A DNA stretch of 64,000 nt from Clostridiales bacterium (GCA_036644995.1 JAVXOZ010000005.1:28067-92066); one strand, 5' to 3'. Positions 5,279-58,660 are shown, numbered from the stretch's first letter. Notes: generated by a model from the letters alone, not told the origin. A program made the numbers and translations.

Positions 5279-5541
5279 GAAACTACCTTAAAAGCACCTT
5301 GTAAACCACTTCAGTGCAAACTTAAAATTACCTTAATCCAACCTTGTAAATCACGTCTGTGCAAACAACTACCTTAATCGCACCTTGTAAATCACTTTGT
5401 GCCAACTTAAACTACCTTAATAGCACCTTATAAATCACTTTGTGCCAACTAAAACTACCTTAATAGCACCTTATAAATCACTTTGTGCCAACTAAAACTA
5501 CCTTAGTAGCACCTTGTAAATCACCTTTGTGCCAACTTAAA
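5279..5541. repeat. degenerate tandem array, six units of about 43 nt
   Basis: Unit CTACCTTAATAGCACCTTATAAATCACTTTGTGCCAACTAAAA. The units at 5412-5454 and 5455-5497 are identical. Confidence 0.9.
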
Positions 5542-5570
5542 TTATCTACATAATAAATTAATTTCTTATA

Positions 5571-6626
5571 TCAAAGCACAATTAAATCCTTGGGTGAGGC
5601 TGTCATGGTAAAGGCACCACTTGGGGTCATCCGCACCATATCCTCTATTCTTACCCCCCCTGCTTGGGGAATATATATACCAGGCTCCAAGGTAAATACC
5701 ATATTGGGCTTAAAAACCATATCATTTTTTTTATTCACAGTGGGTAATTCGTGGATTTCCAACCCTACCCCGTGGCCTAAGCTGTGTCCAAAATAATGTT
5801 CCAGCTCAAATTCCGCAAAATAATCCCTGGTGGCTTTTTCCGCATTGCTGATTTTAAGCCCGGGAAAAGCTTTGGCATATGCCCTTGCTTGACCTTCCTT
5901 TACCACATGGTAAAGCTGGCGCATTTCAGGTTCGGGTTCACCAAGAAAAACCGTACGTGTCATATCTGAGCAATAATTTTCATAAATACAACCATAATCC
6001 ATAAGCAAAGGCTCATGGGCTAAAATTTTATTATTTCCTGCCACCCCATGGGGCAAAGCCGAACGTGGACCGCTTGCCACGATAAAATCAAAAGATGGTG
6101 CTGTAGCTCCTTGGGAACGCATAAAAAAGTCCAATTCGTTGCTGATTTCTATTTCCAATACCCCTTCTTTAATAAAGGGTAAAATATGGCGAAAGGCATC
6201 ATCAGCAATATCCACGGCTTTTTGTAAAATTTCTAATTCTTCAGGTTCTTTAATCATGCGCAAAGCGGCAATTTCCTGTGATTTGGGCAGTAATTCCCCA
6301 TTGAGGGGTAATTCCGCCTTTAATGCTTCAAAAGTTGCCACGGTGAGGAAATTTTCCTCAAAACCTATAACTTTTTCACCCTGTAATAAGGGTTTAATAA
6401 GCCAAGGACTGGGGGATAAAACAACATTCCAGTTTGGGCATTGTTCTTTTGCCTGTTCTTCATAGCGAGAATCCACTAAAATGTAGGCATTTTTTTCCGT
6501 AAGCCAAATTCCTGCCAAGGTACCACTAAAGCCCGATAAATACAAAATATTTTCGGGTTGATGGATAAAAACACCATCTAAGTTGTTTTCTGCTATTAAA
6601 TTTCTAATTTTTTCCAATTGTTTCAC
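5571..6626 (-). CDS. M24 family Xaa-Pro aminopeptidase
   Basis: 351 aa with a creatinase-like N-domain and M24 metal ligands (HGVGLEIHE, EPGIY). Confidence 0.85.
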   Translation of the reverse strand: MKQLEKIRNLIAENNLDGVFIHQPENILYLSGFSGTLAGIWLTEKNAYILVDSRYEEQAKEQCPNWNVVLSPSPWLIKPLLQGEKVIGFEENFLTVATFEALKAELPLNGELLPKSQEIAALRMIKEPEELEILQKAVDIADDAFRHILPFIKEGVLEIEISNELDFFMRSQGATAPSFDFIVASGPRSALPHGVAGNNKILAHEPLLMDYGCIYENYCSDMTRTVFLGEPEPEMRQLYHVVKEGQARAYAKAFPGLKISNAEKATRDYFAEFELEHYFGHSLGHGVGLEIHELPTVNKKNDMVFKPNMVFTLEPGIYIPQAGGVRIEDMVRMTPSGAFTMTASPKDLIVL

Positions 6627-6684
6627 AGCAAATATACCTCTTATTGTATTTTAACATATAATGTTAAGTTTTTCCACTACATTA

Positions 6685-8016
6685 TTATGTTTTTCCACTG
6701 ATTTTCATAGAACTAATTTTCAAAGGTGGTGCACCCCTATAACCGTAAAATTTTATTTCATCACCCACAGCTTCCACATCCCGTAAAAGCTGAAAAACAT
6801 TGCCTGCCACCATATTCCCACTAATGGCAGTTGCCATTTCACCATTGGTGATGAGGTTACCTCGCACACCCAAGGAAAAATCGCCGCTTATGGGGTTTGC
6901 CATGTGTAAACCCATTAAATCACGGATATAAATACCACTTTTTATTCCTTTAACCATGGATTGCAATGTATCTTTGCCACTTTTTATGTAATAATTTGTA
7001 AACCCTGTGGTGGGTAAAGATTTTGCAGAATTAGCAAAGCCATTGCCTGTGGGTTTAACATCGGCTTTTGCCGCCGCCACGGTATCGTATAAAAAGCTTT
7101 TAACCTTGCCGTGGTCTATTAAAATATTTTTACCGCAGGGTGTTCCTTGGTCGTCAAAGGAATTAGAGGCAATGCCCCAAGGCAAAAGAGGGTTATCACA
7201 CAAGGTTAAATCCCTATGAGTGATAATTTCACCAATTTTTTCTGCTAATTTTGATTGCCCTTTACGGATATTATCTCCCAAAAAGCTCGGTAATATGATA
7301 CCTAAAAAATCCACTACGGCATCGCCATCAATAATAACAGGATATTCACCGGTTTTAACGGTAATGGCATTTAATTTATTAACCGCATTAAACCCTGCAT
7401 TTGCACCGATTTTATCCGCATCCAACTGGGAAAATAAGCGTTTTGCCATGGCATCGCCACCTGTTTCCGTTTCCGTGGCTGTTTGGCTAATTGCCACCAC
7501 AGAGCCGGTTACATAATTTGCATTAAAGGTCAAATCCAGTCCCAAGGTATTTTTTATAATGGTAGTGACCTTTGCCGAGCCTAAGGAAGCACGGTCTATT
7601 TTTTTTACTTTTTTATTCTTTAATGTTGCAGATTTAAGGGCATATAAAAATTCTTCTTTTTCCTTAAATCCCACTTCCTCTTGGGCTTCCCAAGGTACAT
7701 TGGGATAGATTAAACCATGGGGAGTAAAATGATAATAAGGCTCGGAATCCAAAAATTTGCAGGAAACCAAGGCATCGTCTATGGCTTTTTCCATTACATT
7801 TTTTTCAGCCACCGCACCGTAGGAAAATCCCAAAACACCATTTTTTAATAGGCGGATAGAAAAACCTTGGGATTTAGAGCCATTAACATCAGCCAAGGCT
7901 TTATCTTCCAAAACATAGCGTTCGCTGCTGGAATTAACCGCAAAAATTTCGCATTGGTCTGCTCCTTTTTTTAAAGCGTAACTCAAGGCGTTTTCTAAAA
8001 TAATTTCTTTTTTCAT
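6685..8016 (-). CDS. pmbA: TldD/PmbA family metalloprotease (PmbA/TldE-like)
   Basis: 443 aa with family-typical sequence. Overlaps the tldD stop by 4 nt. Confidence 0.8.
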   Translation of the reverse strand: MKKEIILENALSYALKKGADQCEIFAVNSSSERYVLEDKALADVNGSKSQGFSIRLLKNGVLGFSYGAVAEKNVMEKAIDDALVSCKFLDSEPYYHFTPHGLIYPNVPWEAQEEVGFKEKEEFLYALKSATLKNKKVKKIDRASLGSAKVTTIIKNTLGLDLTFNANYVTGSVVAISQTATETETGGDAMAKRLFSQLDADKIGANAGFNAVNKLNAITVKTGEYPVIIDGDAVVDFLGIILPSFLGDNIRKGQSKLAEKIGEIITHRDLTLCDNPLLPWGIASNSFDDQGTPCGKNILIDHGKVKSFLYDTVAAAKADVKPTGNGFANSAKSLPTTGFTNYYIKSGKDTLQSMVKGIKSGIYIRDLMGLHMANPISGDFSLGVRGNLITNGEMATAISGNMVAGNVFQLLRDVEAVGDEIKFYGYRGAPPLKISSMKISGKT

Positions 8017-11592: not shown

Positions 11593-11618
11593 AACCAAGG
11601 CTTTTTAAAGCCTTGGTT
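11593..11618 (-). terminator. intrinsic terminator closing structured element copy A
   Basis: 10-bp stem AACCAAGGCT/AGCCTTGGTT, followed by TTTTATATTTT on the minus strand. Confidence 0.75.
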
Positions 11619-11756: not shown

Positions 11757-11820
11757 GTTATTTCTATAAAATACAGAAAGCACATAATTTAACCACGTTA
11801 AAATGGTTGGATAATTTAGA

Positions 11821-11963
11821 CACGGAAATTTATCCACGGGGTTATAGCCACGGAGTTATCGCCACGGAAATTTAGCCACGGGGTTATAGCCACGGAGTTT
11901 TATCCACGGAGTTTTAGTCACGAGGTTATCGCCACGGGGTTTTATCCACGGGGTTTTAGTCAC
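11821..11963. repeat. degenerate tandem array, about 11 units of 13-14 nt
   Basis: Unit CCACGGRRTTWTMG repeated head to tail, directly 3' of the scfB stop codon. Confidence 0.9.
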
Positions 11964-11968: not shown

Positions 11969-13339
11969 TTACTCACTTTCAGCCACTTGCACCATAATGG
12001 CACATTCCATACGCTTGCGAAACAGCTCACAGCCATATTCATAAATACCGCTTATGCTCCCTGTGGCATGGTAGGCATTGGCAGGGCAGCCACCGGAACA
12101 ATATAGCCTTGCCCAGCAATCCCCGCACTCCTTACGGGCATATACATTGCACATTTTAAATTCATCACGCAGCTTTGTATTGGTTACCCCATCCCAAATA
12201 TTACCCAAGCTGTACTTGGGGTCATCTACAAATTGATGGCAGGGAAAAAGCTCACCCCAAGGTGTAACCGCCATGTATTCCGTGCCGGAACCACACCCGG
12301 AAATCCGTTTATAAATACAGGGGCCTTGGGTTAAATCTATCATATAATGGTAAAAAGTGAAGCCTTCACCTTTTTTATTGCGTTTTATCATCTCTTTGGC
12401 TAAAATTTCATATTGATTAAAAAGCTCGGGCAAATCCTCAGCTGTTAAAGCATAGGGGTCTTTGGGGTCACAAACCACAGGCTCCATGCTTAATTCCTTA
12501 AAGCCCAAATCCGCCATGTGAAAAATATCATTGGTAAAATCCACATTATTGTGGGTAAAAGTGCCACGCACATAGTAATCCTTACCTTTACGGCGGCGTA
12601 CCAGTTCCTGAAATTTGGGCACAATAGTATCGTAGCTGCCCTTACCTGCAATATTTTTACGCAAATGGTCGTGAACAGATTTTCTGCCATCTAAACTTAA
12701 AACCACATTATGCATTTCTTTATTGGCAAAATCTATTACATCATCATCAATATTCACACCATTGGTGGTGAGGGTAAAGCGGAATTTTTTATCATATTTT
12801 TCTTCTTGATTTCTGCCATAATGCACTAAATCCTTTACCACTTGCCAATTCATCAAAGGTTCGCCGCCGAAAAAATCCACCTCTAAATTGGTGCGTTTTC
12901 CCGAATGCGCAATGAGAAAATCCAAAGCCTGCTTTCCCACATCCAAGGACATAATGCTGCGTTCCCCTTTATATTTGCCTTGACTGGCAAAGCAATATTC
13001 ACAATTTAAATTGCAAGTATGGGCAACATGTAAACAAAGAGCCTTAACCACTGTGCTTCTGTTTTTAAAATCAAAGGCTTTATCTTCATAGGTATCCCCC
13101 ACAAAAAGCTTGCCCTGGTTTTTTAATTCCGCTATATCATCCAAGCATTCCCCAATTTCAGCGGCGGTAATATCGGGATTATCTTGGTATTTATCTAAAA
13201 TTTGGGCAGTTATTTCTTGGGGGGATGTGGTTTGGTATTTAGCAATAATATCGTAAGCCACTTCATCCACAACGTGAACTGCACCGCTGTTAATATCCAA
13301 AACTATATTGTAGCCATTTAATTTATATTGATGAATCAT
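11969..13339 (-). CDS. scfB: radical SAM/SPASM thioether-forming SCIFF peptide maturase
   Basis: 456 aa with CNLNCEYC radical SAM cluster and a C-terminal SPASM Cys pattern. The SCIFF precursor gene lies immediately upstream. Confidence 0.85.
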   Translation of the reverse strand: MIHQYKLNGYNIVLDINSGAVHVVDEVAYDIIAKYQTTSPQEITAQILDKYQDNPDITAAEIGECLDDIAELKNQGKLFVGDTYEDKAFDFKNRSTVVKALCLHVAHTCNLNCEYCFASQGKYKGERSIMSLDVGKQALDFLIAHSGKRTNLEVDFFGGEPLMNWQVVKDLVHYGRNQEEKYDKKFRFTLTTNGVNIDDDVIDFANKEMHNVVLSLDGRKSVHDHLRKNIAGKGSYDTIVPKFQELVRRRKGKDYYVRGTFTHNNVDFTNDIFHMADLGFKELSMEPVVCDPKDPYALTAEDLPELFNQYEILAKEMIKRNKKGEGFTFYHYMIDLTQGPCIYKRISGCGSGTEYMAVTPWGELFPCHQFVDDPKYSLGNIWDGVTNTKLRDEFKMCNVYARKECGDCWARLYCSGGCPANAYHATGSISGIYEYGCELFRKRMECAIMVQVAESE

Positions 13340-13360
13340 TAATTTTCCTCATTTCTCCAT

Positions 13361-13424
13361 GGGTTTAGGTGGGATTTTATTGGGTTTAGGTTGGATTTTG
13401 TTTGGTTTAAATCAGATTTTGTTT
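13361..13424. repeat. three tandem units of about 21 nt between scfA and scfB
   Basis: GGGTTTAGGTGGGATTTTATT, GGGTTTAGGTTGGATTTTGTTT and GGTTTAAATCAGATTTTGTTT. Confidence 0.8.
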
Positions 13425-13540: not shown

Positions 13541-13684
13541 TTATTTGGAGCTTTCACATTTTTGGTTGGCAACGCCGCAAGAAGTTTTGCAAGCTGATTG
13601 GCAAGAGGTTTGGCATTCGCCACAGCCGCCGTTTTCAACGCTTTTTGCTAAATCACGAGTATCAAGAGTTTTAATTCTTTTCAT
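13541..13684 (-). CDS. scfA: six-cysteine SCIFF ribosomal peptide precursor (47 aa)
   Basis: Hand translation gives MKRIKTLDTRDLAKSVENGGCGECQTSCQSACKTSCGVANQKCESSK. This is the classic SCIFF GGCGECQTSCQSACKTSC core. It is too short for the ORF track. Confidence 0.9.
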   Translation of the reverse strand: MKRIKTLDTRDLAKSVENGGCGECQTSCQSACKTSCGVANQKCESSK

Positions 13685-19330: not shown

Positions 19331-19934
19331 TACATTAATTTACCTAATCAAAAATTTACCTAATCAAAACTGCCTAACAATATATCTAAATAAATCCACC
19401 CTAAAAAATATGTACGAGGAAATTTATCGTAGAAAACTTAACTTAGAAAATCTACCTAAACAAATCTACTTTAGAAAACCTATCTCAGCAAATCTACCTT
19501 AAACAAACTTAACTCAGAAAACCTACCTATCAAATCTACCTCAGAAAACTTACCTTTAGAAAATCTACCTCAGTAAATCTAACTCAACAAATCTATCTCA
19601 ACAAACCTACCTCGGAAAATCTACCTTAGAAAACTTACCTTAACAAACCTACCTCAGAAAATCTATCTCAGAAAATCTACCTAAGTAAATCTACCTCAGT
19701 AAATCTACCTATCAAATCTACCTAACAAATCTACCTAACAAACCTACCTCGGAAAACCTACCTTAGAAAACCTACCTTAGAAAACCTACCTTAGCAAACC
19801 TGCATAAACAAACCTATCTTAAATAAATCTAACTAAAAAAACTTACCTAAGAAATCTTACCTTAGCAAACTTAACTCAGCAAATCTATTTAAACAAATCT
19901 ACATTAATCTACCTTAATTAAATCCACCTAAGCC
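19331..19934. repeat. about 600-bp degenerate tandem array, about 43 units of 13-14 nt
   Basis: Unit AAAYCTACCTYAGN repeated head to tail, filling the whole gap between the M23 stop and the radical SAM start. Confidence 0.95.
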
Positions 19935-23518: not shown

Positions 23519-25846
23519 TCACCCATTATTCGACTCCGCACCAGCGTTATTCGACTCTGAGTCAGTGTTTTTCAAATCCGCATCGGTTTTATTTTCCGAG
23601 CCTGCATCTTTATTGGATTTTACATTTTCAGAAACGATAAGGTCGTAATCCACCTTATAGCCAAAATAGGCTTCAAAAGCGGCTTCACAAACTTTACCTG
23701 CGGTGGGACCGCCATGCTGGCCATATTCCACCAAGCCTGCATAGGCAATTTGGGGGTCATCCGCCGGGGCAAAAGCAATAAAAACACCATGGTAATCGGA
23801 ATCGTTATTATCTTCTGCCAGACCTGTTTGGGCTGTTCCTGTTTTACCTGCGGGTTGTAGCTCCAAGGGTAAGCCTTTAAATAAATTAGAGGCAGTACCC
23901 CCACCTTCACCACTAACAACATCTTTCATGGCTTGGGTAATATTTTTTCGTATTTCATCGGTTAATTTTAAATTATCAACTTCCGTAGGTTCATTGGAGA
24001 CTAAAACATTGCCTTTATCGTCCACTATTTCATCCACCAAATGTGGTTGCATCCGAGCACCACCATTTGCTAAAGTAGCAGCGTAAGATGCTAATTGCAG
24101 CACGGTATCGGCATTTGCTCCTTGTCCCATAGCGGTATAATAGGTATCATAAATCTGCCATTGAGATTCCCAACCGGAGTTCTTTTCGGCTTTTAATTGA
24201 GGTGAGGGTAAAACCCCTGCAACTTCCCCTGGCAAATCTATATTGGTTAATTGACCAAAACCATATTTTCTACCTGCATCCAGTAGTTTATCTTCCCCAA
24301 TCCGAGCTGCCATAGTTTGGAAATAGGTATTGCAGCTCCCTGCGGTGGCGGTAAAAAAGTTAACGGTGCCATGGCTATCCCAACACCCTGCCATGGGTTT
24401 AACCGCATTAGTTGGCCCTGTGCAAGCCACGCTATCGGTAACAGGTATACCTGCTTTTAAAAGAGCAGTGGCACAAACCAATTTAAAGGTTGAACCCGGT
24501 GCATATTGACCTGAAATGGTTCTGTTCATTTGGGGTTTTAGTTTAGAATCGAAATAATAATCAACTTCTTCTTGGGTTAGCCCCCGCACAAAATCGTTGG
24601 GGTCCACAGAAGGGGCACTTGCCATGGCAATAACACCACCTGTGTGCACATCCAAAACCACGGCACTACCTGCTTTACACTTGGCATTCCCTGCGGATGC
24701 AATAACCTCTTGCAAGGCATCTTCCATGTATTTTTGGGTATTTAAATCTATTGCTAATTTTAAAGAATTACCGCTAATGGGTGGTTCTTCAGAAATTACA
24801 CTGCTTATATTGCCACGGGCATCAACTTCCAGATAGCGTTTGCCATCCTGACCACGTAAGCCCATTTCCTTGCCATCCTTGGTGTAGTGCTCGTAATAGC
24901 TTTCTAAGCCACTTTTACCCACGGTATCCGTAAGCTCATAACCGTAAAGGTCTTTTTCTTCTTCCAGTTGTTTTTCACTTATTTTACCCACTGTACCCAA
25001 GGTTTGCCCTAAATAAAAACCAAAGGGATAAGTGCGCATTGCCTCCTCAACCACGTATACGCCGGGGTATTGGTCTTTATTTTCCGCCACTATTTGGGCA
25101 ACTTTTATACCCACATCATAGGTATAGCTTCTCACGGAAACAGGTTTGTAATTATTACCAGAAGATGGCAGCATATCCTCTATTTCTTTAGGTGTTACCT
25201 TTTCATTTTTAGATATTGTGCCATCGGCATTTTTTATAGTGCCTAATTTTTTATTTTTAGCTTTTTTAGTATCTGTGGTATTTTCATCAGTGGTTTTGTT
25301 ATCTGTGGTTTCGCCATCGGCAGTTTCCCCATCAACAGTTTCGCCATTGGCAGCTTCAGCCAATGGTTTGCCATCTATGGTTTCACCTTTTTTCGCAGCT
25401 TCAGCTTTTTTGGCTTGGAGTAAAAGTTCCTGATTTTTTTCCACAGCTTCGGCAACGGTGCTTTGGCCAATAACAGAACGGGCTTCTTCTTCGGCTTCAA
25501 AAATATCTTTACGGTTGAATAAAGCAGATAAATTTTTAGCTAATTCCTCACCGTCTTTCACCTCATCCATATAAACATTTACGCTCATAATAGGTTCGGA
25601 GCTGGCTAAAATATTGCCGTTTTTATCGTATATTACACCACGTCGTGCAGGTATGTTTACCACACGGTCTATATTATTGGTGGCTTTAACCGCATAATCT
25701 GCACCTTGGACAATTTGCATAGTAAATAAACGCCCAATAAGCACCACAAATATTACTATTATCAGTGCGTAAACCAGCATTAATCTTTTATTTACCATTT
25801 GTGTTGGACGTTCGGCTTTTACGGCTTCCTTTTTACTCATTTCCAC
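23519..25846 (-). CDS. mrdA: penicillin-binding protein 2 (elongasome transpeptidase)
   Basis: 775 aa with an N-terminal TM, STFK active-site motif, and low-complexity insert and tail. Confidence 0.85.
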   Translation of the reverse strand: MEMSKKEAVKAERPTQMVNKRLMLVYALIIVIFVVLIGRLFTMQIVQGADYAVKATNNIDRVVNIPARRGVIYDKNGNILASSEPIMSVNVYMDEVKDGEELAKNLSALFNRKDIFEAEEEARSVIGQSTVAEAVEKNQELLLQAKKAEAAKKGETIDGKPLAEAANGETVDGETADGETTDNKTTDENTTDTKKAKNKKLGTIKNADGTISKNEKVTPKEIEDMLPSSGNNYKPVSVRSYTYDVGIKVAQIVAENKDQYPGVYVVEEAMRTYPFGFYLGQTLGTVGKISEKQLEEEKDLYGYELTDTVGKSGLESYYEHYTKDGKEMGLRGQDGKRYLEVDARGNISSVISEEPPISGNSLKLAIDLNTQKYMEDALQEVIASAGNAKCKAGSAVVLDVHTGGVIAMASAPSVDPNDFVRGLTQEEVDYYFDSKLKPQMNRTISGQYAPGSTFKLVCATALLKAGIPVTDSVACTGPTNAVKPMAGCWDSHGTVNFFTATAGSCNTYFQTMAARIGEDKLLDAGRKYGFGQLTNIDLPGEVAGVLPSPQLKAEKNSGWESQWQIYDTYYTAMGQGANADTVLQLASYAATLANGGARMQPHLVDEIVDDKGNVLVSNEPTEVDNLKLTDEIRKNITQAMKDVVSGEGGGTASNLFKGLPLELQPAGKTGTAQTGLAEDNNDSDYHGVFIAFAPADDPQIAYAGLVEYGQHGGPTAGKVCEAAFEAYFGYKVDYDLIVSENVKSNKDAGSENKTDADLKNTDSESNNAGAESNNG

Positions 25847-27850: not shown

Positions 27851-27985
27851 AACAATAAATATACCTCTGAATTATCAACAATAAGTGTTAAGTCCATGTA
27901 TAAAGCGTGGAAGTATTTACATTTTATCTATATCAGTTTCACACATTCACACTAAATATTTTAAATCTGATTTTATGTTTTAGCA

Positions 27986-28075
27986 AATTAATTTTACAGA
28001 TTTTGGTGTTACAATTTTAATAATTTAACCAATTAATTTTATAGGTTTTGGTGTTTCAATTTTAATTTTTTAACC
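27986..28075. repeat. two tandem 45-nt units
   Basis: AATTAATTTTACAGATTTTGGTGTTACAATTTTAATAATTTAACC is repeated with a few substitutions. Confidence 0.85.
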
Positions 28076-28181
28076 ACAGAGCCAAATTTTCAAGATTTTT
28101 CCACGATATTTGCAATTTTGAATACGCATATGCGGAATTTAAGTAAAACTTAACTGAAGTAAATCTTTAAAATAATAGTTT

Positions 28182-28313
28182 TTATCCAAAGAAGTTGTGG
28201 TTTTTGTCCAAGAAAATTATGATTCTCATTCAACAAAGTTACGGCTATTATCCAAGGAAGTTGTAGCTATTATCCAAGGAAGTTGTGGTTCTTCTCCAAG
28301 GAAGTTTTGGTAA
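28182..28313. repeat. degenerate tandem array, six 22-nt units
   Basis: Unit TTATCCAAGGAAGTTGTGGTTC, directly 3' of the maf stop. Confidence 0.85.
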
Positions 28314-28375
28314 TTTTAAAAGTTAGAAATTAAACAATTAAAAACAATAAAACTTTTCTGCAAAACAATTGGTTT

Positions 28376-37158: not shown

Positions 37159-37263
37159 ATTTATTAAAATAATTTAAAATAACACAATTAAAAATTTCCC
37201 AAAAACACCATTGTTAAATATAAAAAACAACCGCAATTTTATTACCGAAGATAAACAGCAAAT

Positions 37264-37452
37264 AGATTACAAACTTACCTAACACAGGAGATTACAAACT
37301 TACCTAACGCAGGAGATTACAAACTTATCTAACGCAACAGATTGAAAACTTACCTAACACAGGAGATTGCAAATTATCGAACGCAACAGATTGAAAACTT
37401 AGCCAACGCAGTATTTTACTAAATTAGCCAAGGCAGGAAATTACTAAGGAGC
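37264..37452. repeat. degenerate tandem array, about seven 25-nt units
   Basis: Unit AGATTACAAACTTACCTAACRCAGG, decaying toward the right end. Confidence 0.85.
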
Positions 37453-37600
37453 AAAATCTATTTTAACCTACCGAAACCAAAACAAACTTTATCTAAAAAA
37501 GGCATATATATCTGGAATATCTGGAATATCTGGATATATATACATTAAAATTAAAATATATACCAATCTAAGCCAAATGCAACACCCTACCAAAAAGATA

Positions 37601-37630
37601 AAAAACACCGCCAAAAAAGCGGTGTTTTTT
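37601..37630. terminator. bidirectional intrinsic terminator
   Basis: AAAAACACCGC-CAAAAAA-GCGGTGTTTTT with T-runs on both strands. Confidence 0.8.
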
Positions 37631-37749
37631 ACTATCAACACATATTTATTTATACTAAATATTATAAATTACATGATATTAACCGAGGATTTTTGTTTAC
37701 ATTGGCTTGATAATCATTTTAGAAACAGCCTTAATAATAAACCAAATTA

Positions 37750-37980
37750 CCGCAAACAAGCCGCAACTCAGCAAACAAAACACTACGTTAAAGTTGGGTT
37801 TAGGGTTTAGGCTACTACTGTGCAAACAAACCACAACTCACCAAACAAGCCGCAACTCAGCAAACAAACCACTACTCCGCAAACAAAACACTACGTTAAA
37901 GTTGGGTTTAGGGTGTAGGCTACTACTGTGCAAACAAACCGCATTACATCAAACAAGCCACAACACATCAAATAAACCAA
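37750..37980. repeat. CAAACAA-rich repeat region with a 108-nt higher-order period
   Basis: The 62-nt blocks 37771-37832 and 37879-37940 are 61/62 identical and sit within CAAACAARCCRCAACTCA-type short repeats. Confidence 0.85.
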
Positions 37981-37989
37981 ATTACAGTA

Positions 37990-41480: not shown

Positions 41481-41725
41481 ATATAAAAATACATCAATAG
41501 TATAACATTTTGTCCACTTAAAATAAACAGTATTTTAAAAAAGTTTACATAATTTTACATAATTTTTTTATTTAATACTATTTATGACTTTTATTTCTAT
41601 TAATTTTAATTTGCCATTATTTTAACTTTAATTTATATTTAAGGTAATAGTTAAGGATATAGACTAAATATTTTTGGGACAAGGAGTTAAAATATCCGAA
41701 AAACTGCAATTTTAGGGCAAAAAAA

Positions 41726-41743
41726 ACAGCGGTATAAACCGCT
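41726..41743 (-). terminator. intrinsic terminator closing structured element copy B
   Basis: CAGCGGT-loop-ACCGCTG followed by T8 on the minus strand. Confidence 0.75.
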
Positions 41744-41774
41744 GGCAGATTGTTAAAAAACATAGTTTTTTGGC

Positions 41775-41906: not shown

Positions 41907-41934
41907 AAACAGCGGTATAAGCCGCCGAGGTGTT

Positions 41935-42092
41935 TGGGGTTTTGGCTGTGAGATGGGGTTTAGCTGTGAGATGGGTTTTATCTACAAAATGGGGGTTTAG
42001 CTGCGAGATGGGGTTTAGCTGTGAGATGGGTTTTATCTACAAAATGGGGTTTGGTTGCAAGATACCATTTATCTACAAATAATGGGTTTTGG
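41935..42092. repeat. degenerate tandem array, about nine 18-19-nt units
   Basis: The units GGGGTTTAGCTGTGAGATG and GGTTTTATCTACAAAATG alternate, giving a ~56-nt higher-order period. Confidence 0.85.
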
Positions 42093-42245
42093 ATAAAGGT
42101 TGAAAACATCTAAACACCCAAAGTAAGAACTTCTTCTGTATTTAGATATAAAAGTTCCAAGTTTGGTTTTAGCTGTTCTCAGCCTTAATCCACAGCCGCA
42201 AAAGCTTTTACGCAATTAGTAAAAGCTTTTTTCATTTTATATTTA

Positions 42246-43472
42246 TTAATTTAATTTTTTCATTTTGCGGTTATTGCCAAATTCTGCCACAGCGGTAAAT
42301 AACACATCCGATGATGAATTTAAAGCGGTTTCGCAGGAATCCTGCACCACGCCTACAATAAAGCCAACACCCACCACCTGCATGGCAATGTCGTTAGGGA
42401 TGCCAAACAAGCTGCAAGCCAAAGGTATTAAAAGCAGAGAACCACCTGCAACACCCGAAGCACCACAAGCACTTATGGCGGAAAGCACACTTAAAATAAT
42501 AGCCGTAGGCATATCTACACTAATGCCCAAAGTGTAGGTTGCCGCCAAGGTAAGGGTGGCAATGGTAACTGCGGCACCTGCCATATTAATGGTAGCACCC
42601 AAGGGTATGGATATGGCATAAGTATCTTTATCCAAGCCCAATTCCTCACAAAGGCTCATATTAACAGGGATATTTGCCGCTGAACTCCGAGTAAAAAACG
42701 CTGTAATACCACTTTGCTTTAAACATTTAAAAACCAAAGGATAAGGATTTTTACGGATATTAATAAATGCGATAAGTGGATTTACCACCAAAGCAATAAA
42801 TGCCATAATCCCAACCAACAATATAATCAATCTGCCATAGGTAAAAAGAATTTTTAAACCACTGGTGGAAATGGCGGTAAAAACCAAACCCATAATACCC
42901 AAAGGTGCAAATTTAATAACCCACCGCACAATTTGAGAAATACCCTCTGCAAAATCGGAGATTACATTTTTTGTGCCATCTGAGGCGAATTTTAAAGCCA
43001 AGCCCAGCAAAATTGCCCAAGCTAAAATTCCAATATAATTGGCATCACCAATGGCACTTATGGGATTATCAACTATTTTAAAAACCAGAGATTGCAAAAC
43101 TTCCAATATACCTTCGGGTGGAGCAACATCCTGAACCCCGGCGGTTAAAACCAATTTTACTTTAAAAATGTTGCTGACAACCACTGCCACTAATCCTGCC
43201 ATAAAAGTGCTGATGGCATAAAGACAAATAATGGATTTCATATTGGTTTTTTGCCCCTGTTTATGTTTGGATATTGCAGCCATAACCAAAAACAAAACCA
43301 AAATTGGGGCTACTGCTTTTAATGCACCCACAAAAAGCTCCCCAAAGATGCCAAGACCCGATAATTGTTTGGGGAAAAATATAGCCAAAACAATACCCAC
43401 TGCCAAACCAATAATAATTTGTTTTACCAAACTTATTTTGTTCCATTTACCCAATAGTTTTTTAAAAAACAT
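42246..43472 (-). CDS. sstT: serine/threonine transporter SstT (DAACS family)
   Basis: 408 aa with SstT-like sequence throughout. Confidence 0.85.
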
Positions 43473-43724
43473 TTATATTTCCTTCCAATACTTATACCGC
43501 ATTTTTTATGTGGCAAAACAAGTATTTTTTTATTATTATCTTCTTTAATTTAATATATCCCAAAATTTTAATTAAACAAACGCACCCTACTTATAATAAC
43601 ACAAAATATCAAATAAGCAATAAAATATTTATGGAAATTTTGGTGCTGTGCCTAAATTTAATTATATTGAGGCAAATTGTAAAAAAATGTAATTTAGCTT
43701 AAAATGATATATTAAAAAAAGCTT

Positions 43725-43818
43725 AAACCCTTATAATCTAAATTAAACCACTGTTAAACCCTTATAATCTAAATTAAACCACTGTTAAACCCTTTATAAT
43801 CTAAATTAAACCACTGTT
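43725..43818. repeat. three near-perfect 31-nt direct repeats upstream of sstT
   Basis: AAACCCTTATAATCTAAATTAAACCACTGTT three times. The third copy has a 1-nt insertion. Confidence 0.9.
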
Positions 43819-43867
43819 TGATGTAATGAAATATACATAAATTAGGAAATTTATACCCAAAATAAAA

Positions 43868-43900
43868 AACTGCACTTCACCTTTAAGGTGAAATACAGTT
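43868..43900 (-). terminator. intrinsic terminator of the CODH operon
   Basis: A 13-bp stem whose two mismatches become G-U pairs only on the minus strand, followed by TTTTTTATTTT. Confidence 0.7.
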
Positions 43901-43920
43901 TCTTTTTTTATTTAAGTTTT

Positions 43921-44186
43921 AATGTGAGATTGGGTTAAGTTGGTATTTTCATTGGGTTTTAACTTAGGATTGGGTTAAATTGGTATTACCATTGGGTTTT
44001 AATGTAGGATTGAGGTAAGTTGGCATTTTCATTGGGTTTTAACTTAGGATTTGGGTAAGTTGGTATTACCATTGGGTTTTAATGTAGGATTGAGGTAAGT
44101 TGGTATTTTCATTGGGTTTTAACTTAGGATTGGGTTAAGTTTGTATCTTCATTGGGTTTTAACTTGAAAATTTAGGCTTGGGTTTT
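43921..44186. repeat. degenerate tandem array, about 6.5 units of about 41 nt
   Basis: Unit AACTTAGGATTGGGTTAAGTTGGTATTTTCATTGGGTTTT with alternating subtypes (81-nt higher order). Lies between the oxidoreductase stop and the terminator. Confidence 0.9.
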
Positions 44187-48073: not shown

Positions 48074-48298
48074 GGGGGTTATGCCCAAGGAACTATGTTA
48101 AAAGAATCTATGTTAAATGAGGTCTATGCCCAAGGGGGTTATGCCCAAGGGGTTCGTGCCCAAGAGGGCTATGTTAAAGAAGTGGGGCTATGTTAAATTG
48201 GTTTGTGCCCAAGTGGAGCTATGTTAAATTAGTACTATCTTAAAGGGGGTCTACGCTAAATTGCTCTACGCTAAAGCCGAAGGATGTCTACACTAAAT
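48074..48298. repeat. degenerate tandem array, about 14 units of 14-17 nt
   Basis: The units GGTTATGCCCAAGG, GCTATGTTAAA and GTCTACGCTAAA drift along the array. Confidence 0.85.
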
Positions 48299-48489
48299 GC
48301 TGTGGTGCGGAATAAAAACGTAATTTTTACCACGGTATAGACCATATATAACAAAAAACCTACTTTCCGATGGGGGTCTGTGCCCAAGTTAAATGGGGTC
48401 TACACTAAATGCTGTGGTGCGGAATAAAAACGTAATTTTTACCACGGTATAGACCATTTTCATATATAACAAAAAACCTACTTTCCGAT
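48286..48489. repeat. two direct repeats of about 86-92 nt separated by 26 nt
   Basis: 48286-48371 and 48398-48489 are nearly identical apart from a 4-nt insertion. Each contains a bulged hairpin GTGGT...AAAAA-CGTAA-TTTTT-ACCAC. Confidence 0.9.
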
Positions 48490-48516
48490 ATGGCATAGCT
48501 ATTTTATTATATAGCA

Positions 48517-48553
48517 AAAGACCTACCTTCCGATGTGGAAAATAGGTCTTTTT
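48517..48553 (-). terminator. intrinsic terminator of tRNA-Val
   Basis: AAAGACCTA/TAGGTCTTT stem flanked by A and T runs, immediately 3' of the tRNA. Confidence 0.75.
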
Positions 48554-50051: not shown

Positions 50052-50157
50052 TCGGATATATCCCGATATACTCGATGTATCCCGTTGTATCCGATATACT
50101 CGTTGTATCCCGTTGTATCCCGTTGTATCCGATATACTCGATGTATCCGATATAATA
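50052..50157. repeat. degenerate tandem array (units GTATCCCGTT and GTATCCGATATACTCGWT)
   Basis: About 8 units of 10-18 nt between the regulator stop and its terminator. Confidence 0.85.
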
Positions 50158-50208: not shown

Positions 50209-50242
50209 GCATATCTTGATTTTTCAAGATATGCTTTTTTTT
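50209..50242 (+). terminator. intrinsic terminator
   Basis: Perfect 11-bp stem GCATATCTTGA/TCAAGATATGC, 4-nt loop, then T8. Confidence 0.85.
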
Positions 50243-54161: not shown

Positions 54162-54182
54162 AACGGAGCTTAACGCTCCGTT
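54162..54182 (-). terminator. intrinsic terminator closing structured element copy C
   Basis: AACGGAGC-loop-GCTCCGTT followed by T6 on the minus strand. Confidence 0.75.
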
Positions 54183-54333
54183 GCAGATTGTGAACAAAAT
54201 GAAATTTTGCCTGCACAATTAGGACTTTAAAAAGACTTAACCCGACGAAAATAGTAAGCAGAATTTCGGGGTAAATACACCAAAAAATCGGCAATTAATA
54301 TTTTCGGCGAGCATCAGACTTTTTAATGCCTTA
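54183..54333 (-). repeat. rod-like structured intergenic element, divergent copy C
   Basis: Shares the AAAGACTTA...CG.CGAAAA / TTTTCGGCG...ATCAGACTTT helix, with the same internal mismatches as copies A and B. Bracketed by duplicated hairpins at 54162-54182 and 54334-54354. Confidence 0.65.
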
Positions 54334-54373
54334 AACGGAGCATAAAGCTCCGTTAATCGGTGCATCAAATGAA

Positions 54374-54577: not shown

Positions 54578-54632
54578 ACCTGTCACCTCTCTTTTCTCAA
54601 ATCGGTATGGTGGATATTTTCATGCAGGAGTA

Positions 54633-54674: not shown

Positions 54675-54692
54675 GTTTTCTACTATATTTTA

Positions 54693-55925: not shown

Positions 55926-56440
55926 TTTTCAATTCCACTTTCGTGATATTTTTCTCAATTTCTCATTTTTGTAATTTATCATATAGTTTAATTATTCAAT
56001 AAAAATATACAAAATCCTTTAAACTTAGGTTAAATTACCTTAAGATAGGCAAAAATTGTGGTTAATCTGTGGTTTTATCACTTTTACTCTTAAATAAGAC
56101 TTGAATATTGTTGCAAAATATATTACTATATAATATGAATGCAGAATTTACCTTTTGCAAAAATCTGAAAATTTATGCCTTTTTAAATACAGGATTTATT
56201 AAAAATTCAAGCCGTGGGTATTTACTTTTAAAAACTTAAAATAAGGAAACATTTAGGCACTTTAAAATTAGGCTGAAAAAATTATACCTTAACAATTTAC
56301 CCACCATGTTTTTCAAGACTACACTTTTTTAAGCATATTAATATAGATTTTACCGTAAAAACCATTTATATATTCAATTTACCGTAAACCAAAAAAACAA
56401 CTTGGTTTACTGCATTAATTATTATGGGGGATTTTTTATA

Positions 56441-57838
56441 ATGAGGGATTTTTTTAAGAATAAAAAAAAGAATATCGCACCTCAACCTCAAGAACAACTA
56501 TATGCTGTTTTTATTCAAAGTAACGACAGAATATATCATTTGGATAAAGAATGTGCAGGTGTGGGCTGTATTACCATCAATAACAAAATAGCCCGTTGCC
56601 AAGCCAGAAAACCATGCCAACTGTGCGCAAAAAACCGTCCTGCGTACAATGCCCCAATAATTTCCCCAGAGGAAAATACCAAGGCATATACACACACACC
56701 CAAACCACCCTTAACACCACCACCTGCCATAGCCAATAAAGAAAATACAGCCACGGCGGATAGCAATATAAATACGCCATTATCACCTTTAAATGCCCAA
56801 GCTGACCTTGGTGTAAACCCTACCCTTGAGCCAAGCCCAGAAGCTGAAAATTTAGATATGCCGCCCTTAGCTCAAGAAGCCGCAGCCAAAAATCCCCAAA
56901 TGGAACTTAATGATATTATCGCCCCAAAAGAGCAAGCCATACCATCGGTAATTTTAAATAATGAAATAAATCCAGATAATGGCATTGCATCGGATAATAT
57001 TACCATTGCAGAAAATAACAGCGAAAATAGCAATATCGAGGAAAAAAACAGTCTTATCCAAGATATAAAAAAAGAAGATATAGAAAAACTTTTTCCTTTA
57101 CCCACAGAAAATATTGAAGATGAAAAACCTCTATCTTGGGAATCTCTTAAAGAAATGCCCCTTGCTTCCAGTACCGAAGAAGTTGCAGAAAAAATTGTAA
57201 GTGATGAGGGTGAAATTTCAGGGAATATCTCTGAAAACATTGAAGATGAAAAACCCCTATCTTGGGAATCACTTAAGGTAATGCCCCTTAACCCCAACAC
57301 CGAAGAAGTTGCGGAAAAAATTGTAAGTGACGAGGGTGAAATTTCAGCCAATATCTCTGAAAATATTGAAGATGAAAAACCATCGGTATCGCCACTGGTT
57401 TTTAACAGCACCCAAGCCACGGCAATGGCTGAGGAAAATATAACTAACACAGAAACACCAATGCCAAACCCGATAATGGCACCGATTTCCTCATCTATAT
57501 CCACAGATGAAAATGACTTAAACCCCAAAAATCAAGGCACAAATATACCGATATTAACCAGAGTACCCCTTACACCTTTGCTGGAAACACAAGAACCCTT
57601 GACTGAACATCACCATACAGAACCAAAAAAACAAAAAAAAACCGGTAAAACCCAAAACTTAGTATTTGGTAAATTAGACAAGGTTTCCATTGTTGGCATC
57701 GCCATATTTACACTGACTATTTTGGTTATAATTGCCAATTTTGCCACAGGTGGCATAGTGCCCAAAGATAAAGTAGATGCCTTGAGCTGCAATACAGAAA
57801 TATCTTGTAATATTGATAACTATGATTTAAAATTTTAA
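56441..57838 (+). CDS. hypothetical protein: N-terminal Cys motif, ~340-aa acidic disordered region with 42-aa repeats, C-terminal TM
   Basis: ATG 56441 follows GGGGGA. YHLDKEC..C...C..C motif. 126-nt tandem repeats at 57107-57382. TM segment VSIVGIAIFTLTILVIIANFA. Confidence 0.7.
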   Translation: MRDFFKNKKKNIAPQPQEQLYAVFIQSNDRIYHLDKECAGVGCITINNKIARCQARKPCQLCAKNRPAYNAPIISPEENTKAYTHTPKPPLTPPPAIANKENTATADSNINTPLSPLNAQADLGVNPTLEPSPEAENLDMPPLAQEAAAKNPQMELNDIIAPKEQAIPSVILNNEINPDNGIASDNITIAENNSENSNIEEKNSLIQDIKKEDIEKLFPLPTENIEDEKPLSWESLKEMPLASSTEEVAEKIVSDEGEISGNISENIEDEKPLSWESLKVMPLNPNTEEVAEKIVSDEGEISANISENIEDEKPSVSPLVFNSTQATAMAEENITNTETPMPNPIMAPISSSISTDENDLNPKNQGTNIPILTRVPLTPLLETQEPLTEHHHTEPKKQKKTGKTQNLVFGKLDKVSIVGIAIFTLTILVIIANFATGGIVPKDKVDALSCNTEISCNIDNYDLKF

Positions 57839-57984: not shown

Positions 57985-58350
57985 ATGAAAACCGGAAAAC
58001 TGCTTATTGGCATATTATGTATTTTATTATGCTTTTTTATAACTTTTCAATCCTGTGCCGCAGGAGTACACAACTTTTTTGCAAACACAGGTGAGGTTGG
58101 GGGCACAGCAGGTTTAATAACGGCATTGTTGATGCTAACAGCTGGTATAGTTGGAATTGCCACTCGCAATTATCACAAAAGAGGCGGTGCACTTTCAGCC
58201 ATGATACTTTACTGTGTGGCTGCACTTTTTGCCATTCTTTTAGCAGGCTCCTATATAGACCTAATTATTTGGGGAATTTTATGTTTGGCATTTGCGGCTT
58301 TTTATTTAGCCGATATAATAATAGAAAACAATCCATTGATAGGTGAATAA
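57985..58350 (+). CDS. small hypothetical membrane protein
   Basis: AAGGGGG RBS. 121 aa with 4 predicted TM segments. Confidence 0.55.
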   Translation: MKTGKLLIGILCILLCFFITFQSCAAGVHNFFANTGEVGGTAGLITALLMLTAGIVGIATRNYHKRGGALSAMILYCVAALFAILLAGSYIDLIIWGILCLAFAAFYLADIIIENNPLIGE

Positions 58351-58480
58351 ATAAGGGCTTTGGATTTTAAAATTATAAACAACTGATTAGGATTATAAAA
58401 AACAAAACTCCACAAAACTACATAATCACAATCCGTTTAATTTTAAAAAGCTCTTAAAATACAAATAGGGAAAATATTAA

Positions 58481-58526
58481 ATAGCCTTGGGTAAATTTAC
58501 TGATTTATAAATTTACCCAAGGCTAT
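58481..58526. other. 19-bp perfect inverted repeat (hairpin or palindrome)
   Basis: ATAGCCTTGGGTAAATTTA, 8 nt, TAAATTTACCCAAGGCTAT. No clear U-tract on either strand. Confidence 0.85.
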
Positions 58527-58531
58527 AACCA

Positions 58532-58660
58532 ATTTAGGTGGGAAGTAACCATGCACACCTGTGGATTTTAGATGGAAAGCAACTGGCATCTCTGTGAATT
58601 TCTGGTGGGGAGTAAATAATCATCGCTATAAATTTAGGTGAGAAGTAAATAAACACCTTA
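58532..58660. repeat. degenerate tandem array, about four 33-nt units
   Basis: Each unit begins ATTTAGGTGGGAAGTAA, ATTTTAGATGGAAAGCAA, ATTTCTGGTGGGGAGTAA or ATTTAGGTGAGAAGTAA. Confidence 0.7.

What the first reader, a model, noticed from the sequence alone, without database searches (positions are those of the whole stretch)
5279..58660. Window-wide pattern: locus-specific degenerate tandem arrays fill intergenic regions, often between a stop codon and its terminator
At least 14 intergenic regions carry head-to-tail arrays at 5.3, 11.8, 13.4, 19.3, 28.0, 28.2, 37.3, 37.8, 41.9, 43.7, 43.9, 48.1, 50.1 and 58.5 kb. The unit sequence differs at every locus, with units of 11-45 nt, 3-43 copies, and higher-order periods in several. 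In at least five loci the order along the transcribed strand is stop codon, array, intrinsic terminator (37990->37601, 44242->43868, 42246->41726, 11969->11593, and 49971->50242 on the plus strand). The arrays would therefore be transcribed as 3' UTRs. Terminator-proximal sequence is also duplicated at 41.7, 48.3-48.5 and 54.2 kb. This density of private minisatellites is not normal for a bacterial housekeeping region. It suggests either a lineage-specific slippage or duplication process seeded near terminators, or selection for repetitive 3' UTRs (RNA-binding protein platforms, RNA stability, contingency-like variation).
Basis: seen in the sequence. Interest (0 to 1): 0.68.

Follow-up and report, generated by a model that had tools for sequence, protein, structure and literature searches.

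The report
Dense strain-variable minisatellites between bacterial genes
An uncultured Clostridia-type bacterium has filled the gaps after its genes with many locus-specific tandem repeat arrays. Its sister species lack them and their copy number changes between strains, so they look like a fast, largely neutral duplication process rather than a designed RNA feature.

Summary
Tandem Repeats Finder finds 14 arrays (score >=80, period >=7) covering 2,498 bp of the 64-kb window. That compares with 0.86 arrays per 64 kb in 1.49 Mb of control loci, 0 in 87 kb from four sister-clade genomes, and 0 in 30 surrogates. The arrays recur base-for-base in independent assemblies of the same species, so they are not artefacts. 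At orthologous sites the sister species have 11-68-bp spacers where the window has 525-620 bp, so the arrays are lineage-specific. Strains about 0.5% diverged differ by whole units (21, 22, 110, 160 nt), by new duplications, and by presence or absence of a 376-bp block. Arrays have about 10x the substitution density and 100x the indel density of coding DNA. They share no motif, show no consistent strand composition or fold, and cannot encode protein. The stop, array, terminator order holds at five loci. Other arrays lie after terminators, inside operons or next to start codons. In-frame repeats also occur inside genes. Terminator hairpins are repeatedly duplicated. The best reading is an ongoing slippage or template-switching process, filtered by selection, and most comparable with Ehrlichia ruminantium. 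A selected 3' UTR function is not supported but not excluded.

The parts
5280..5541 (-). Array of 43-nt units, x6.1. It starts 29 nt after the stop of the Xaa-Pro peptidase gene (5571) and ends 217 nt before the efp start (5062).
   Evidence: TRF score 355. Identical in L089. 5.1 copies in L102; L103 has a longer spacer; spacers 465/508/621 nt among strains.
11813..11963 (-). Array of 14-nt units with 28/42-nt higher order. It starts 5 nt after the stop of the SCIFF maturase gene (11969) and is followed by terminator 11618-11593.
   Evidence: Identical in L089, L090, L091 and L092.
13360..13424 (-). Array of about three 21-nt units between the SCIFF peptide gene (13541-13684) and its maturase. 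It ends 20 nt before the maturase start codon.
   Evidence: L093 lacks exactly one 21-nt unit, 13383-13403.
19337..19918 (-). Largest array: 14-nt units x about 32 (42-nt higher order) plus 16 nt x2.1. It fills the 620-bp spacer between the M23 peptidase stop (19937) and the radical-SAM gene start (19316). No terminator is predicted.
   Evidence: The orthologous spacer is 48, 11 and 49 bp in L082, L083 and L095. Identical in L089 and L090.
27979..28076 (-). Array of 45-nt units, x2.2, in the maf-mreC spacer.
   Evidence: L081 and L097 lack this duplication and carry a different 17-nt tandem duplication beside it.
28178..28315 (-). Array of 22-nt units x6.3 (66-nt higher order), starting 60 nt after the maf stop (28376).
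   Evidence: There are 6, 6, 5 and 1 units in the window, L081, L097 and L098. The spacer is 525/497/474/415 bp against 47, 31 and 68 bp in sister species.
37264..37444 (-). Array of 25-nt units x7.3 (50/75-nt higher order). It lies after terminator 37632-37598 and before the fur promoter-like site 37135-37107.
   Evidence: The whole block 37234-37610 is absent in L097 and is bounded in the window by an imperfect ~18-nt direct repeat of the terminator's 3' half.
37508..37539 (-). Short array of 9-nt units, x3.4, inside the same strain-variable block.
37752..37986 (-). Array of 19-nt units with 108-nt higher order. It starts 3 nt after the CmpB-family gene stop (37990) and is followed by terminator 37632-37598.
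   Evidence: About 90 nt shorter in L097. Identical in L084.
41935..42080 (-). Array of 18-nt units with 55-nt higher order, downstream of sstT (stop 42246). It lies between an AT-rich hairpin (42200-42230) and terminator 41744-41727.
   Evidence: Identical in L084 and L086.
43723..43818 (-). Array of 31-nt units, x3.1. It lies after terminator 43904-43864 and upstream of sstT.
   Evidence: Rearranged and shorter in L085.
43916..44165 (-). Array of 40-nt units x5.9 (80-nt higher order). It lies between the stop of the FAD/NAD oxidoreductase gene (44242) and terminator 43904-43864.
   Evidence: L085 lacks exactly 160 nt, which is 2 x 80. Identical in L084.
48075..48534 (-). Degenerate 15/45-nt repeats (48075-48216) and 81-nt plus 29-nt direct duplications (48265-48534), between tRNA-Val and cooF.
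   Evidence: Identical in L084.
50055..50154 (+). Array with 10/28/38-nt periods, 84 nt after the stop of the HTH-domain gene (49971). It is followed by terminator 50209-50234.
11593..11618 (-). Predicted intrinsic terminator after the 11.8-kb array.
   Evidence: 11-bp stem plus T run.
37598..37632 (-). Predicted intrinsic terminator between the two 37-kb arrays. Its 3' half recurs at 37216-37234.
41724..41744 (-). Predicted intrinsic terminator. The hairpin sequence is duplicated at 41907-41925 (95% identity).
43864..43904 (-). Predicted intrinsic terminator (19-pair stem) between the 43.9-kb and 43.7-kb arrays.
50209..50234 (+). Predicted intrinsic terminator after the 50.1-kb array.
54162..54354 (-). 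Terminator hairpin AACGGAGC..GCTCCGTT at 54162-54182 and a second copy at 54334-54354, 172 nt away.

Best explanation
These are bacterial minisatellites (VNTR-like arrays). They come from a lineage-specific and still active process of local tandem duplication, followed by expansion and contraction. The likely mechanisms are replication slippage or template switching and unequal exchange between units.

The process acts everywhere, and selection decides what survives.
- Inside genes, only in-frame repeats persist.
- Between genes, any period persists.
- Arrays accumulate where constraint is lowest. That is directly after a stop codon, before or after the terminator, and away from the promoter, ribosome-binding site and 5' leader of the next gene.

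Terminator hairpins appear to be preferred seeds or breakpoints for duplication.

Shown:
- The arrays are real.
- They are absent from sister species.
- Their units are private to each locus.
- Copy number changes between strains.
- They evolve fast.
- Period classes differ between coding and non-coding DNA.

Inferred:
- The molecular mechanism, slippage stimulated by polymerase pausing at hairpins.
- Near-neutrality.
- That the cause is an altered slippage-suppressing or repair function, or weak selection, in this AT-shifted lineage.
For: 1. Reality. L084 (17.4 kb, 99.95% identity) and L089 (21.4 kb, 99.98%) match the window without a single gap across 12 arrays. A Logan short-read assembly, L090, does the same.

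2. Lineage specificity. There are 0 arrays in 87 kb from four sister-clade genomes. The maf-mreC spacer is 31-68 bp there against 525 bp here. The M23 to radical-SAM spacer is 11-49 bp against 620 bp. The last ~40 nt before mreC are still alignable with L082, so the extra DNA sits right after the maf stop.

3. Ongoing turnover between strains.
- Exact deletions of 21, 22, 110 and 160 nt.
- A new 17-nt duplication.
- A ~21-nt duplication of a terminator arm in L097.
- A 17-nt unit with 1.9 copies in the window and 6.6 in L102.
- A 22-nt array with 4.6, 6.6 or about 10 copies outside the window.

4. Fast evolution between strains.
- Substitutions: 5.15% in arrays, 1.3% in other intergenic DNA, 0.53% in CDS.
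- Indel events per kb: 9.4, 1.6 and 0.08.

5. Selection filter. Of 19 coding repeats, 17 have a period divisible by 3. Intergenic minimal periods split 10/8/7 by period mod 3. Repeat content is 261 bp/kb in intergenic DNA against 19 bp/kb in coding DNA.

6. No common functional signature.
- No shared motif.
- G/C asymmetry goes in both directions, and fold z-scores range from -4.0 to +1.7.
- The large arrays carry stop codons in all frames.
- There are no Rfam hits.

7. Terminator involvement. Hairpins are duplicated at 41724/41907 and 54162/54334, 81-nt copies lie at 48265/48377, and the 37.6-kb terminator half repeats at 37216.

8. Precedent. [quoted passage not shown] RecA-independent template switching at tandem repeats is normally suppressed in E. 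coli (PMC7145654).
Against: - No cause for the elevated rate was found. The ExoVII genes are present, and other repair genes lie outside the available DNA.
- The stop-proximal bias could also reflect a function at transcript 3' ends. No expression data exist.
- Many units are strongly G/C strand-asymmetric, which simple neutrality does not predict.
- Only about 81 kb of this genome was examined (the 64-kb window plus 10 kb and 6.9 kb of flanks). The 6.9-kb right-hand extension has no array, so genome-wide generality is not shown.
- Some copy-number differences come from short-read MAGs, including one scaffold with Ns (L085), where collapse cannot be fully excluded.
Confidence: 0.7

Rival explanations
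1. The arrays are selected 3' UTR or intercistronic RNA elements. They would act as platforms for an RNA-binding protein, as stabilisers or decay barriers, or as contingency-like expression tuners. Copy-number change would itself be adaptive.
For: - Five arrays lie exactly between a stop and a predicted terminator.
- Most arrays begin 3-85 nt after a stop codon.
- Copy number varies between strains.
- E. coli REP/BIME elements occupy the same position and affect mRNA stability (general knowledge).
Against: - No motif, composition or fold is common to the arrays.
- Sister species have no arrays at the orthologous sites.
- Arrays have the highest substitution and indel density of any sequence class.
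- Arrays also lie after terminators, next to a start codon, in a convergent spacer (L102) and in-frame within genes.
Confidence: 0.12
2. The arrays arrived as insertions of small non-autonomous mobile or foreign DNA segments that target terminators or gene ends. They were not generated in place.
For: - The 376-bp block 37234-37610 is present in the window and absent in L097. It is bounded by an imperfect ~18-nt direct repeat that could be read as a target duplication.
- The DNA between arrays in the maf-mreC spacer is not obviously derived from the flanks.
Against: - The arrays and their flanks share no terminal sequences, inverted repeats or common core.
- No array unit recurs elsewhere in the window or in the JGI metagenome contigs.
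- Array ends repeat the local flank: GTAATTTGGTTTATT at both ends of the 37.8-kb array, and AGGTAGATTAATGTAGAT-like sequence at both ends of the 19-kb array. That points to growth in place.
- The bounding repeat is the terminator itself, as expected for deletion between duplicated terminators.
Confidence: 0.08
3. The arrays act at the DNA level. They would serve as iteron-like binding sites, nucleoid-structuring or curvature elements, or spacers that insulate neighbouring transcription units.
For: - Regular periodicity.
- Some arrays lie between a terminator and the next promoter (37264-37444, 43723-43818).
Against: - Periods range from 9 to 45 nt with no helical phasing.
- Units are unrelated.
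- Arrays are dispensable in near-identical strains: L098 keeps 1 of 6 units, and L097 lacks a whole block.
Confidence: 0.05
4. The arrays are assembly or sequencing artefacts.
For: - Tandem repeats are a known source of assembly error.
- Short-read contigs of this species break inside arrays.
Against: - The arrays recur gap-free in several independent assemblies from different runs and MAGs: GCA_036647135.1, GCA_036643835.1, GCA_036660415.1, and Logan SRR25820361-3.
- Units are degenerate (59-98% matches), which assemblers do not invent.
Confidence: 0.01

Closest known systems
[quoted passage not shown] 2005 and Frutos et al. 2006, as summarised in PMC10710844)
   Same: - Many locus-specific tandem arrays of varied period in non-coding DNA.
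- Expansion and contraction between closely related strains.
- An AT-shifted lineage.
- The process is treated as mutational, not as a defined element family.
   Different: - Different phylum: an uncultured spore-forming Bacillota rather than an obligate intracellular alphaproteobacterium.
- Coding density here is ordinary (about 84%) rather than about 64%.
- The stop-proximal position and the link to terminators seen here are not part of the Ehrlichia description, as far as I know.
Bacterial VNTR or minisatellite loci used for MLVA typing
   Same: - Head-to-tail units of about 10-100 nt.
- Private to a locus.
- Whole-unit copy-number polymorphism between strains.
   Different: Density. Typical genomes have a handful per Mb. 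The controls here have 0.86 per 64 kb and the window has 14.
REP/BIME elements of enterobacteria
   Same: Extragenic position between a stop codon and a terminator, or between cistrons. Presumably transcribed but not translated.
   Different: REPs are one dispersed family of imperfect palindromes, arranged in alternating orientation. Here every locus has its own non-palindromic unit, arranged in direct tandem.
MIRU (mycobacterial interspersed repetitive units)
   Same: Tandem units of tens of nt within intercistronic spacers of operons, with variable copy number between strains.
   Different: MIRUs are a sequence family shared across about 40 loci and carry short ORFs coupled to the flanking genes. 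Here units are unrelated, most periods are not multiples of 3, and stops occur in all frames.
Cyanobacterial and Beggiatoaceae heptamer repeats (STRR, TAACTGA; PMC4679880)
   Same: Abundant intergenic direct repeats restricted to particular lineages.
   Different: Those are one or a few fixed heptamers genome-wide, mostly next to start codons. Here units are 9-45 nt, all different, and mostly next to stop codons.

Membership tests
Bacterial VNTR / minisatellite | Head-to-tail copies of a unit of roughly 10-100 nt | tested here: met
   TRF periods 9-45 nt with higher orders up to 108 nt, 2-32 copies.
Bacterial VNTR / minisatellite | Copy number differs between strains by whole units | tested here: met
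   Differences of 21, 22, 110 and 160 nt, and 1.9 against 6.6 copies of a 17-nt unit.
Bacterial VNTR / minisatellite | Unit is specific to its locus | tested here: met
   Only 3 of 78 array pairs share an 11-13-nt word, which is not above chance. No unit occurs elsewhere in the window.
Ehrlichia ruminantium-type repeat proliferation | Tandem repeats far denser in non-coding DNA than in other bacteria | tested here: met
   39 bp/kb against 2.0 bp/kb in controls. 261 bp/kb in intergenic DNA. Tested on about 81 kb only; the whole genome was not available.
Ehrlichia ruminantium-type repeat proliferation | Active expansion and contraction between strains | tested here: met
Ehrlichia ruminantium-type repeat proliferation | Very low coding ratio caused by long intergenic regions | tested here: not met
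   The intergenic fraction of the window is 15.8%.
REP/BIME | One dispersed family of imperfect palindromic units of about 35 nt | tested here: not met
   No shared motif. Units are not palindromic, and several G-poor arrays have almost no fold.
REP/BIME | Extragenic position, often between a stop codon and a terminator | tested here: met
   Five loci.
MIRU | Units of one sequence family at many loci | tested here: not met
MIRU | Units carry short ORFs overlapping the flanking stop and start codons | tested here: not met
   Periods such as 14, 19, 22, 25, 31, 40 and 43 nt. The large arrays have stops in all six frames.
CRISPR array | Conserved repeats separated by unique spacers of similar length, usually with cas genes | tested here: not met
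   Units are contiguous with no spacers. No cas domain appeared among the 50 ORFs scanned.
Heptamer repeats (STRR / TAACTGA) | The same heptamer repeated at many loci | tested here: not met
   Only one 7-nt run (GGGTTTA x2.3 at 37796-37811), and units differ at every locus.
Phase-variable contingency locus | Repeat lies within an ORF or within promoter spacing, so that copy number switches expression | tested here: inconclusive
   Most arrays are 3' of genes. The 13360-13424 array abuts the ribosome-binding site of the SCIFF maturase and varies by one unit. The effect on expression could not be tested.

The most novel reading that the evidence does not exclude
A process targeted at transcript 3' ends, such as replication or transcription stalling at terminator hairpins in a lineage that has lost a slippage suppressor, continuously creates new repeat arrays. 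Some of these arrays would then be kept as evolvable 3' UTR or intercistronic modules that tune mRNA stability or termination strain by strain. This would amount to a bacterial counterpart of regulatory minisatellites.
Probability: 0.1. Interest if true: 0.8.

Novelty: new member of a known kind. Interest (0 to 1): 0.45.

Why it matters
- It offers a natural system in which bacterial minisatellites are caught being born, growing and dying. One species is rich in arrays, its close sisters have none, and the orthologous 'empty' sites are known. Comparing the gene content of the species could therefore point to the factor that normally suppresses such duplication.
- The arrays are ready-made strain markers for metagenomes.
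- They explain why short-read MAGs of this organism fragment at these sites.
- They show how much intercistronic and 3' DNA a bacterium can tolerate inside core operons such as maf-mreCD and spoIIIA.
- If any array proved to affect transcript fate, this would be a new route to expression diversity.

Tried and rejected
- The genome-contig scan with ValRS returned only relatives of 62% identity or less. These were used as controls and gave no orthologous intergenic comparison.
- The exact-protein look-up of the M23 peptidase found nothing.
- The sstT homologue contexts (L087, L088) are not syntenic. They served only as extra relatives without arrays.
- Two metagenome scans for array units found nothing.
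- A literature search for the assembly and run accessions found nothing. Collins 2005 is not held.
- Rfam at gathering thresholds found only tRNA-Val.
- Shared-motif hypotheses, including GGGTTTA (telomere-like), AGGTAAGTT and a CsrA GGA motif, are not above chance.
- RNA-structure hypothesis: z-scores are inconsistent. The two strongly negative values come from G/U-rich units.
- Hidden coding repeats: the large arrays are closed in all frames. ORF 37707-38012(+) is a by-product of the repeat.
- CRISPR, MITE or REP identity is rejected.
- Assembly artefact is rejected.
- AT-richness as the cause is rejected. L087 has 33% GC and no arrays.


Full report
**Observation**

| Coordinates | Unit and copies |
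|---|---|
| 5280-5541 | 43 nt x6.1 |
| 11813-11963 | 14/28/42 nt |
| 13360-13424 | 21 nt |
| 19337-19369 and 19430-19897 | 14 nt x31.6, with a 42-nt higher order |
| 27979-28076 | 45 nt x2.2 |
| 28178-28315 | 22/66 nt |
| 37264-37444 | 25/50/75 nt |
| 37752-37986 | 19/108 nt |
| 41935-42063 | 18/55 nt |
| 43723-43818 | 31 nt |
| 43916-44165 | 40/80 nt |
| 48125-48173 | 15 nt, weak |
| 50055-50154 | 10/28/38 nt |

The '58.5 kb' item is not a tandem array. It consists of three irregularly spaced 26-nt copies, 65-77% alike, next to a perfect 19-bp hairpin. The arrays occupy 11 spacers rather than 14, and the highest copy number is about 32.

With one threshold (score >=80, period >=7) the counts are as follows:

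| Sequence set | Arrays | Density |
|---|---|---|
| Window (64 kb) | 14 (2,498 bp) | 39 bp/kb |
| 80 control valS loci from other bacteria (1.49 Mb) | 20 | 2.0 bp/kb, or 0.86 arrays per 64 kb |
| 30 first-order Markov surrogates of the window | 0 | - |

**Context**

Pfam annotation shows a housekeeping region of a spore-forming member of the Bacillota. Its genes include:
- spoIIIAA, efp, tldD/pmbA and aroK;
- a SCIFF peptide with its maturase;
- RNase G, rodA, minCDE, PBP2, mreCD and maf;
- folC, valS, znuABC/fur and sstT;
- cooF-cooS, tRNA-Val, prmC, prfA, glpX and tal.

Almost all genes are on the minus strand. GC content is 38%. The ValRS of named organisms is only about 62% identical. The species is known only from MAGs labelled 'Clostridiales bacterium'. 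Sister species have ValRS 78-83% identical.

**Not an artefact**

Independent assemblies of the same species match the window without a single gap:
- L084 (GCA_036647135.1) over 17.4 kb, at 99.95% identity;
- L089 (GCA_036643835.1) over 21.4 kb, at 99.98% identity;
- the Logan assembly L090 over 11.7 kb.

Together these cover the arrays from 5.3 to 48.5 kb.

**Lineage specificity**

In three sister species the gene order valS-folC-maf-mreC-mreD-PBP2-minCDE-rodA-M23-radical SAM is conserved, but the spacers are tiny:

| Spacer | Sister species | Window |
|---|---|---|
| maf to mreC | 47, 31 and 68 bp | 525 bp |
| M23 to radical SAM | 48, 11 and 49 bp | 620 bp |

The last ~40 nt before mreC still align with L082, so the extra DNA lies directly after the maf stop. 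Four sister-clade loci (87 kb, GC 33-53%) contain no array. AT-richness is therefore not the cause.

**Dynamics between strains**

Strains about 0.5% diverged in coding DNA differ in the arrays in several ways:
- L093 lacks exactly one 21-nt unit.
- L085 lacks exactly 160 nt (2 x 80) of the 43.9-kb array.
- The 22-nt array has 6, 6, 5 and 1 units in four strains.
- Two strains carry a different 17-nt duplication where the window has the 45-nt one.
- L097 lacks the whole block 37234-37610, which holds the 9-nt and 25-nt arrays. In the window this block is bounded by an imperfect repeat of the terminator's 3' half. L097 also has its own ~21-nt duplication of the terminator's 5' arm and a 37.8-kb array about 90 nt shorter.

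Summed over six strain comparisons:

| Sequence class | Substitution density | Indel events per kb |
|---|---|---|
| Arrays | 5.15% | 9.4 |
| Other intergenic DNA | 1.3% | 1.6 |
| CDS | 0.53% | 0.08 |

Outside the window, the next 10 kb to the left has six more arrays. These include a 22-nt array inside the spoIIIA operon with 4.6, 6.6 or about 10 copies. A 17-nt unit has 1.9 copies in the window (3925-3957) and 6.6 copies in L102. The 6.9 kb to the right has no arrays.

**Position**

All strong intergenic arrays lie in co-directional spacers. They typically begin 3-85 nt after the upstream stop codon and end 100-450 nt before the next start. However:
- two arrays lie after a terminator (37264-37444, 43723-43818);
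- four lie in spacers with no predicted terminator, and those spacers are intra-operon in the sister species (5.3, 19.4, 28.0 and 28.2 kb);
- one abuts the ribosome-binding site of the SCIFF maturase.

Terminator hairpins are themselves duplicated at 41724/41907 and 54162/54334. Around 48265-48534 there are further 81-nt and 29-nt direct duplications.

**Tests of function**

- Units share no motif beyond chance.
- Base composition on the transcribed strand is strongly G-rich in some arrays and C-rich in others. Fold z-scores range from -4.0 to +1.7.
- The large arrays are closed in all six frames.
- Rfam finds nothing.
- Of 19 repeats inside genes, 17 have periods divisible by 3, whereas intergenic periods are spread evenly over the three classes. 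This is the pattern expected from one mutational process filtered by selection.

**Mechanism**

The most likely explanation (confidence about 0.7) has three parts.
- This lineage has an elevated and still active rate of short tandem duplication. Expansion, contraction and multi-unit (higher-order) duplication follow, and point-mutation decay then erodes the units.
- Products are tolerated where constraint is least, which is just downstream of stop codons and around terminators.
- Array ends repeat the local flank, which points to growth in place. GTAATTTGGTTTATT lies at both ends of the 37.8-kb array, and an AGGTAGATTAATGTAGAT-like sequence lies at both ends of the 19-kb array.

Seeding by hairpin-induced polymerase pausing is inferred from the repeated terminator duplications and from established knowledge of replication slippage. 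Template switching at tandem repeats, and its suppression by specific proteins, is documented in E. coli (PMC7145654). The ultimate cause is unknown; it could be loss of a suppressor or weak selection in a lineage whose GC fell from 43-53% to 38%.

**Comparison and novelty**

[quoted passage not shown] The features of ordinary VNTR loci are all met. Membership of the REP/BIME, MIRU, STRR/TAACTGA and CRISPR families fails on defining features. The finding is therefore a new member of a known kind. It is notable for three things: its density in a Bacillota with normal coding density, its clean contrast with sister species, and its association with stop codons and terminators.

A selected 3' UTR role (about 0.12), mobile insertions (about 0.08) and a DNA-level role (about 0.05) remain possible but lack support.

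Noticed in passing
window 13541-13684 (-) and 11969-13339 (-): A SCIFF (six-cysteine) ribosomal peptide gene, MKRIKTLDTRDLAKSVENGGCGECQTSCQSACKTSCGVANQKCESSK, lies with its radical-SAM maturase. The ORF list at >=100 aa missed the peptide gene. A strain-variable 21-nt array separates the two genes.
   Followed up: partly
window 42246-43472 (-): The nearest sstT homologues outside the species are from Anaerovoracaceae/Aminipila at 75-79% identity, while ValRS of named taxa is only about 62% identical. In L087/L088 sstT sits in a different gene context. This suggests horizontal acquisition. The gene has arrays on both sides.
   Followed up: partly
whole window against L082, L083, L095: GC content is 38% here but 46%, 53% and 43% in sister species whose ValRS is 78-83% identical. 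That is a strong AT shift in this lineage.
   Followed up: no
window 57107-57381 within ORF 56402-57838 (+); 25270-25362 within PBP2; 2113-2206 within the ABC ATPase gene: In-frame tandem repeats (126, 15 and 45 nt) lie inside genes. PBP2 is 775 aa here, 713-729 aa in sister species and 773 aa in two strains. ORF 56402-57838 has no Pfam match.
   Followed up: partly
L102/L103/L104 (same species, left of the window): More variable arrays lie outside the window.
- A 22-nt array between spoIIIAB and spoIIIAC has 4.6, 6.6 or about 10 copies.
- A 12/36-nt array lies at the nusB 3' end.
- 33/34-nt arrays follow xseB.
- The spoIIIAE-like ORF is 459, 513 or 521 aa among strains because of in-frame repeats.
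   Followed up: partly
L099 4-59; L103 17568-17787: Short-read contigs of this species begin or end inside tandem arrays, so the arrays fragment its MAG assemblies.
   Followed up: no
window 27851-28375 and the sister loci: maf is followed directly by mreC. No radC or mreB lies between them in this species or its sisters, unlike the usual maf-radC-mreBCD arrangement I recall for many Firmicutes.
   Followed up: no
window 58481-58526 and 58710-58747: Two strong hairpins, one with a perfect 19-bp stem and one with an 18-bp stem, lie in the convergent spacer after glpX. They are probably terminators serving both directions.
   Followed up: no
window 37707-38012 (+): This 101-aa ORF is created only by the stop-free reading of the 19/108-nt array on the opposite strand. 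It is very likely spurious.
   Followed up: yes
window arrays: Six of the 13 arrays have about 3-fold or greater G:C asymmetry on one strand, in either direction (for example G 0.26 / C 0.05 at 19.4 kb and G 0.06 / C 0.27 at 43.9 kb). This is unexplained.
   Followed up: partly
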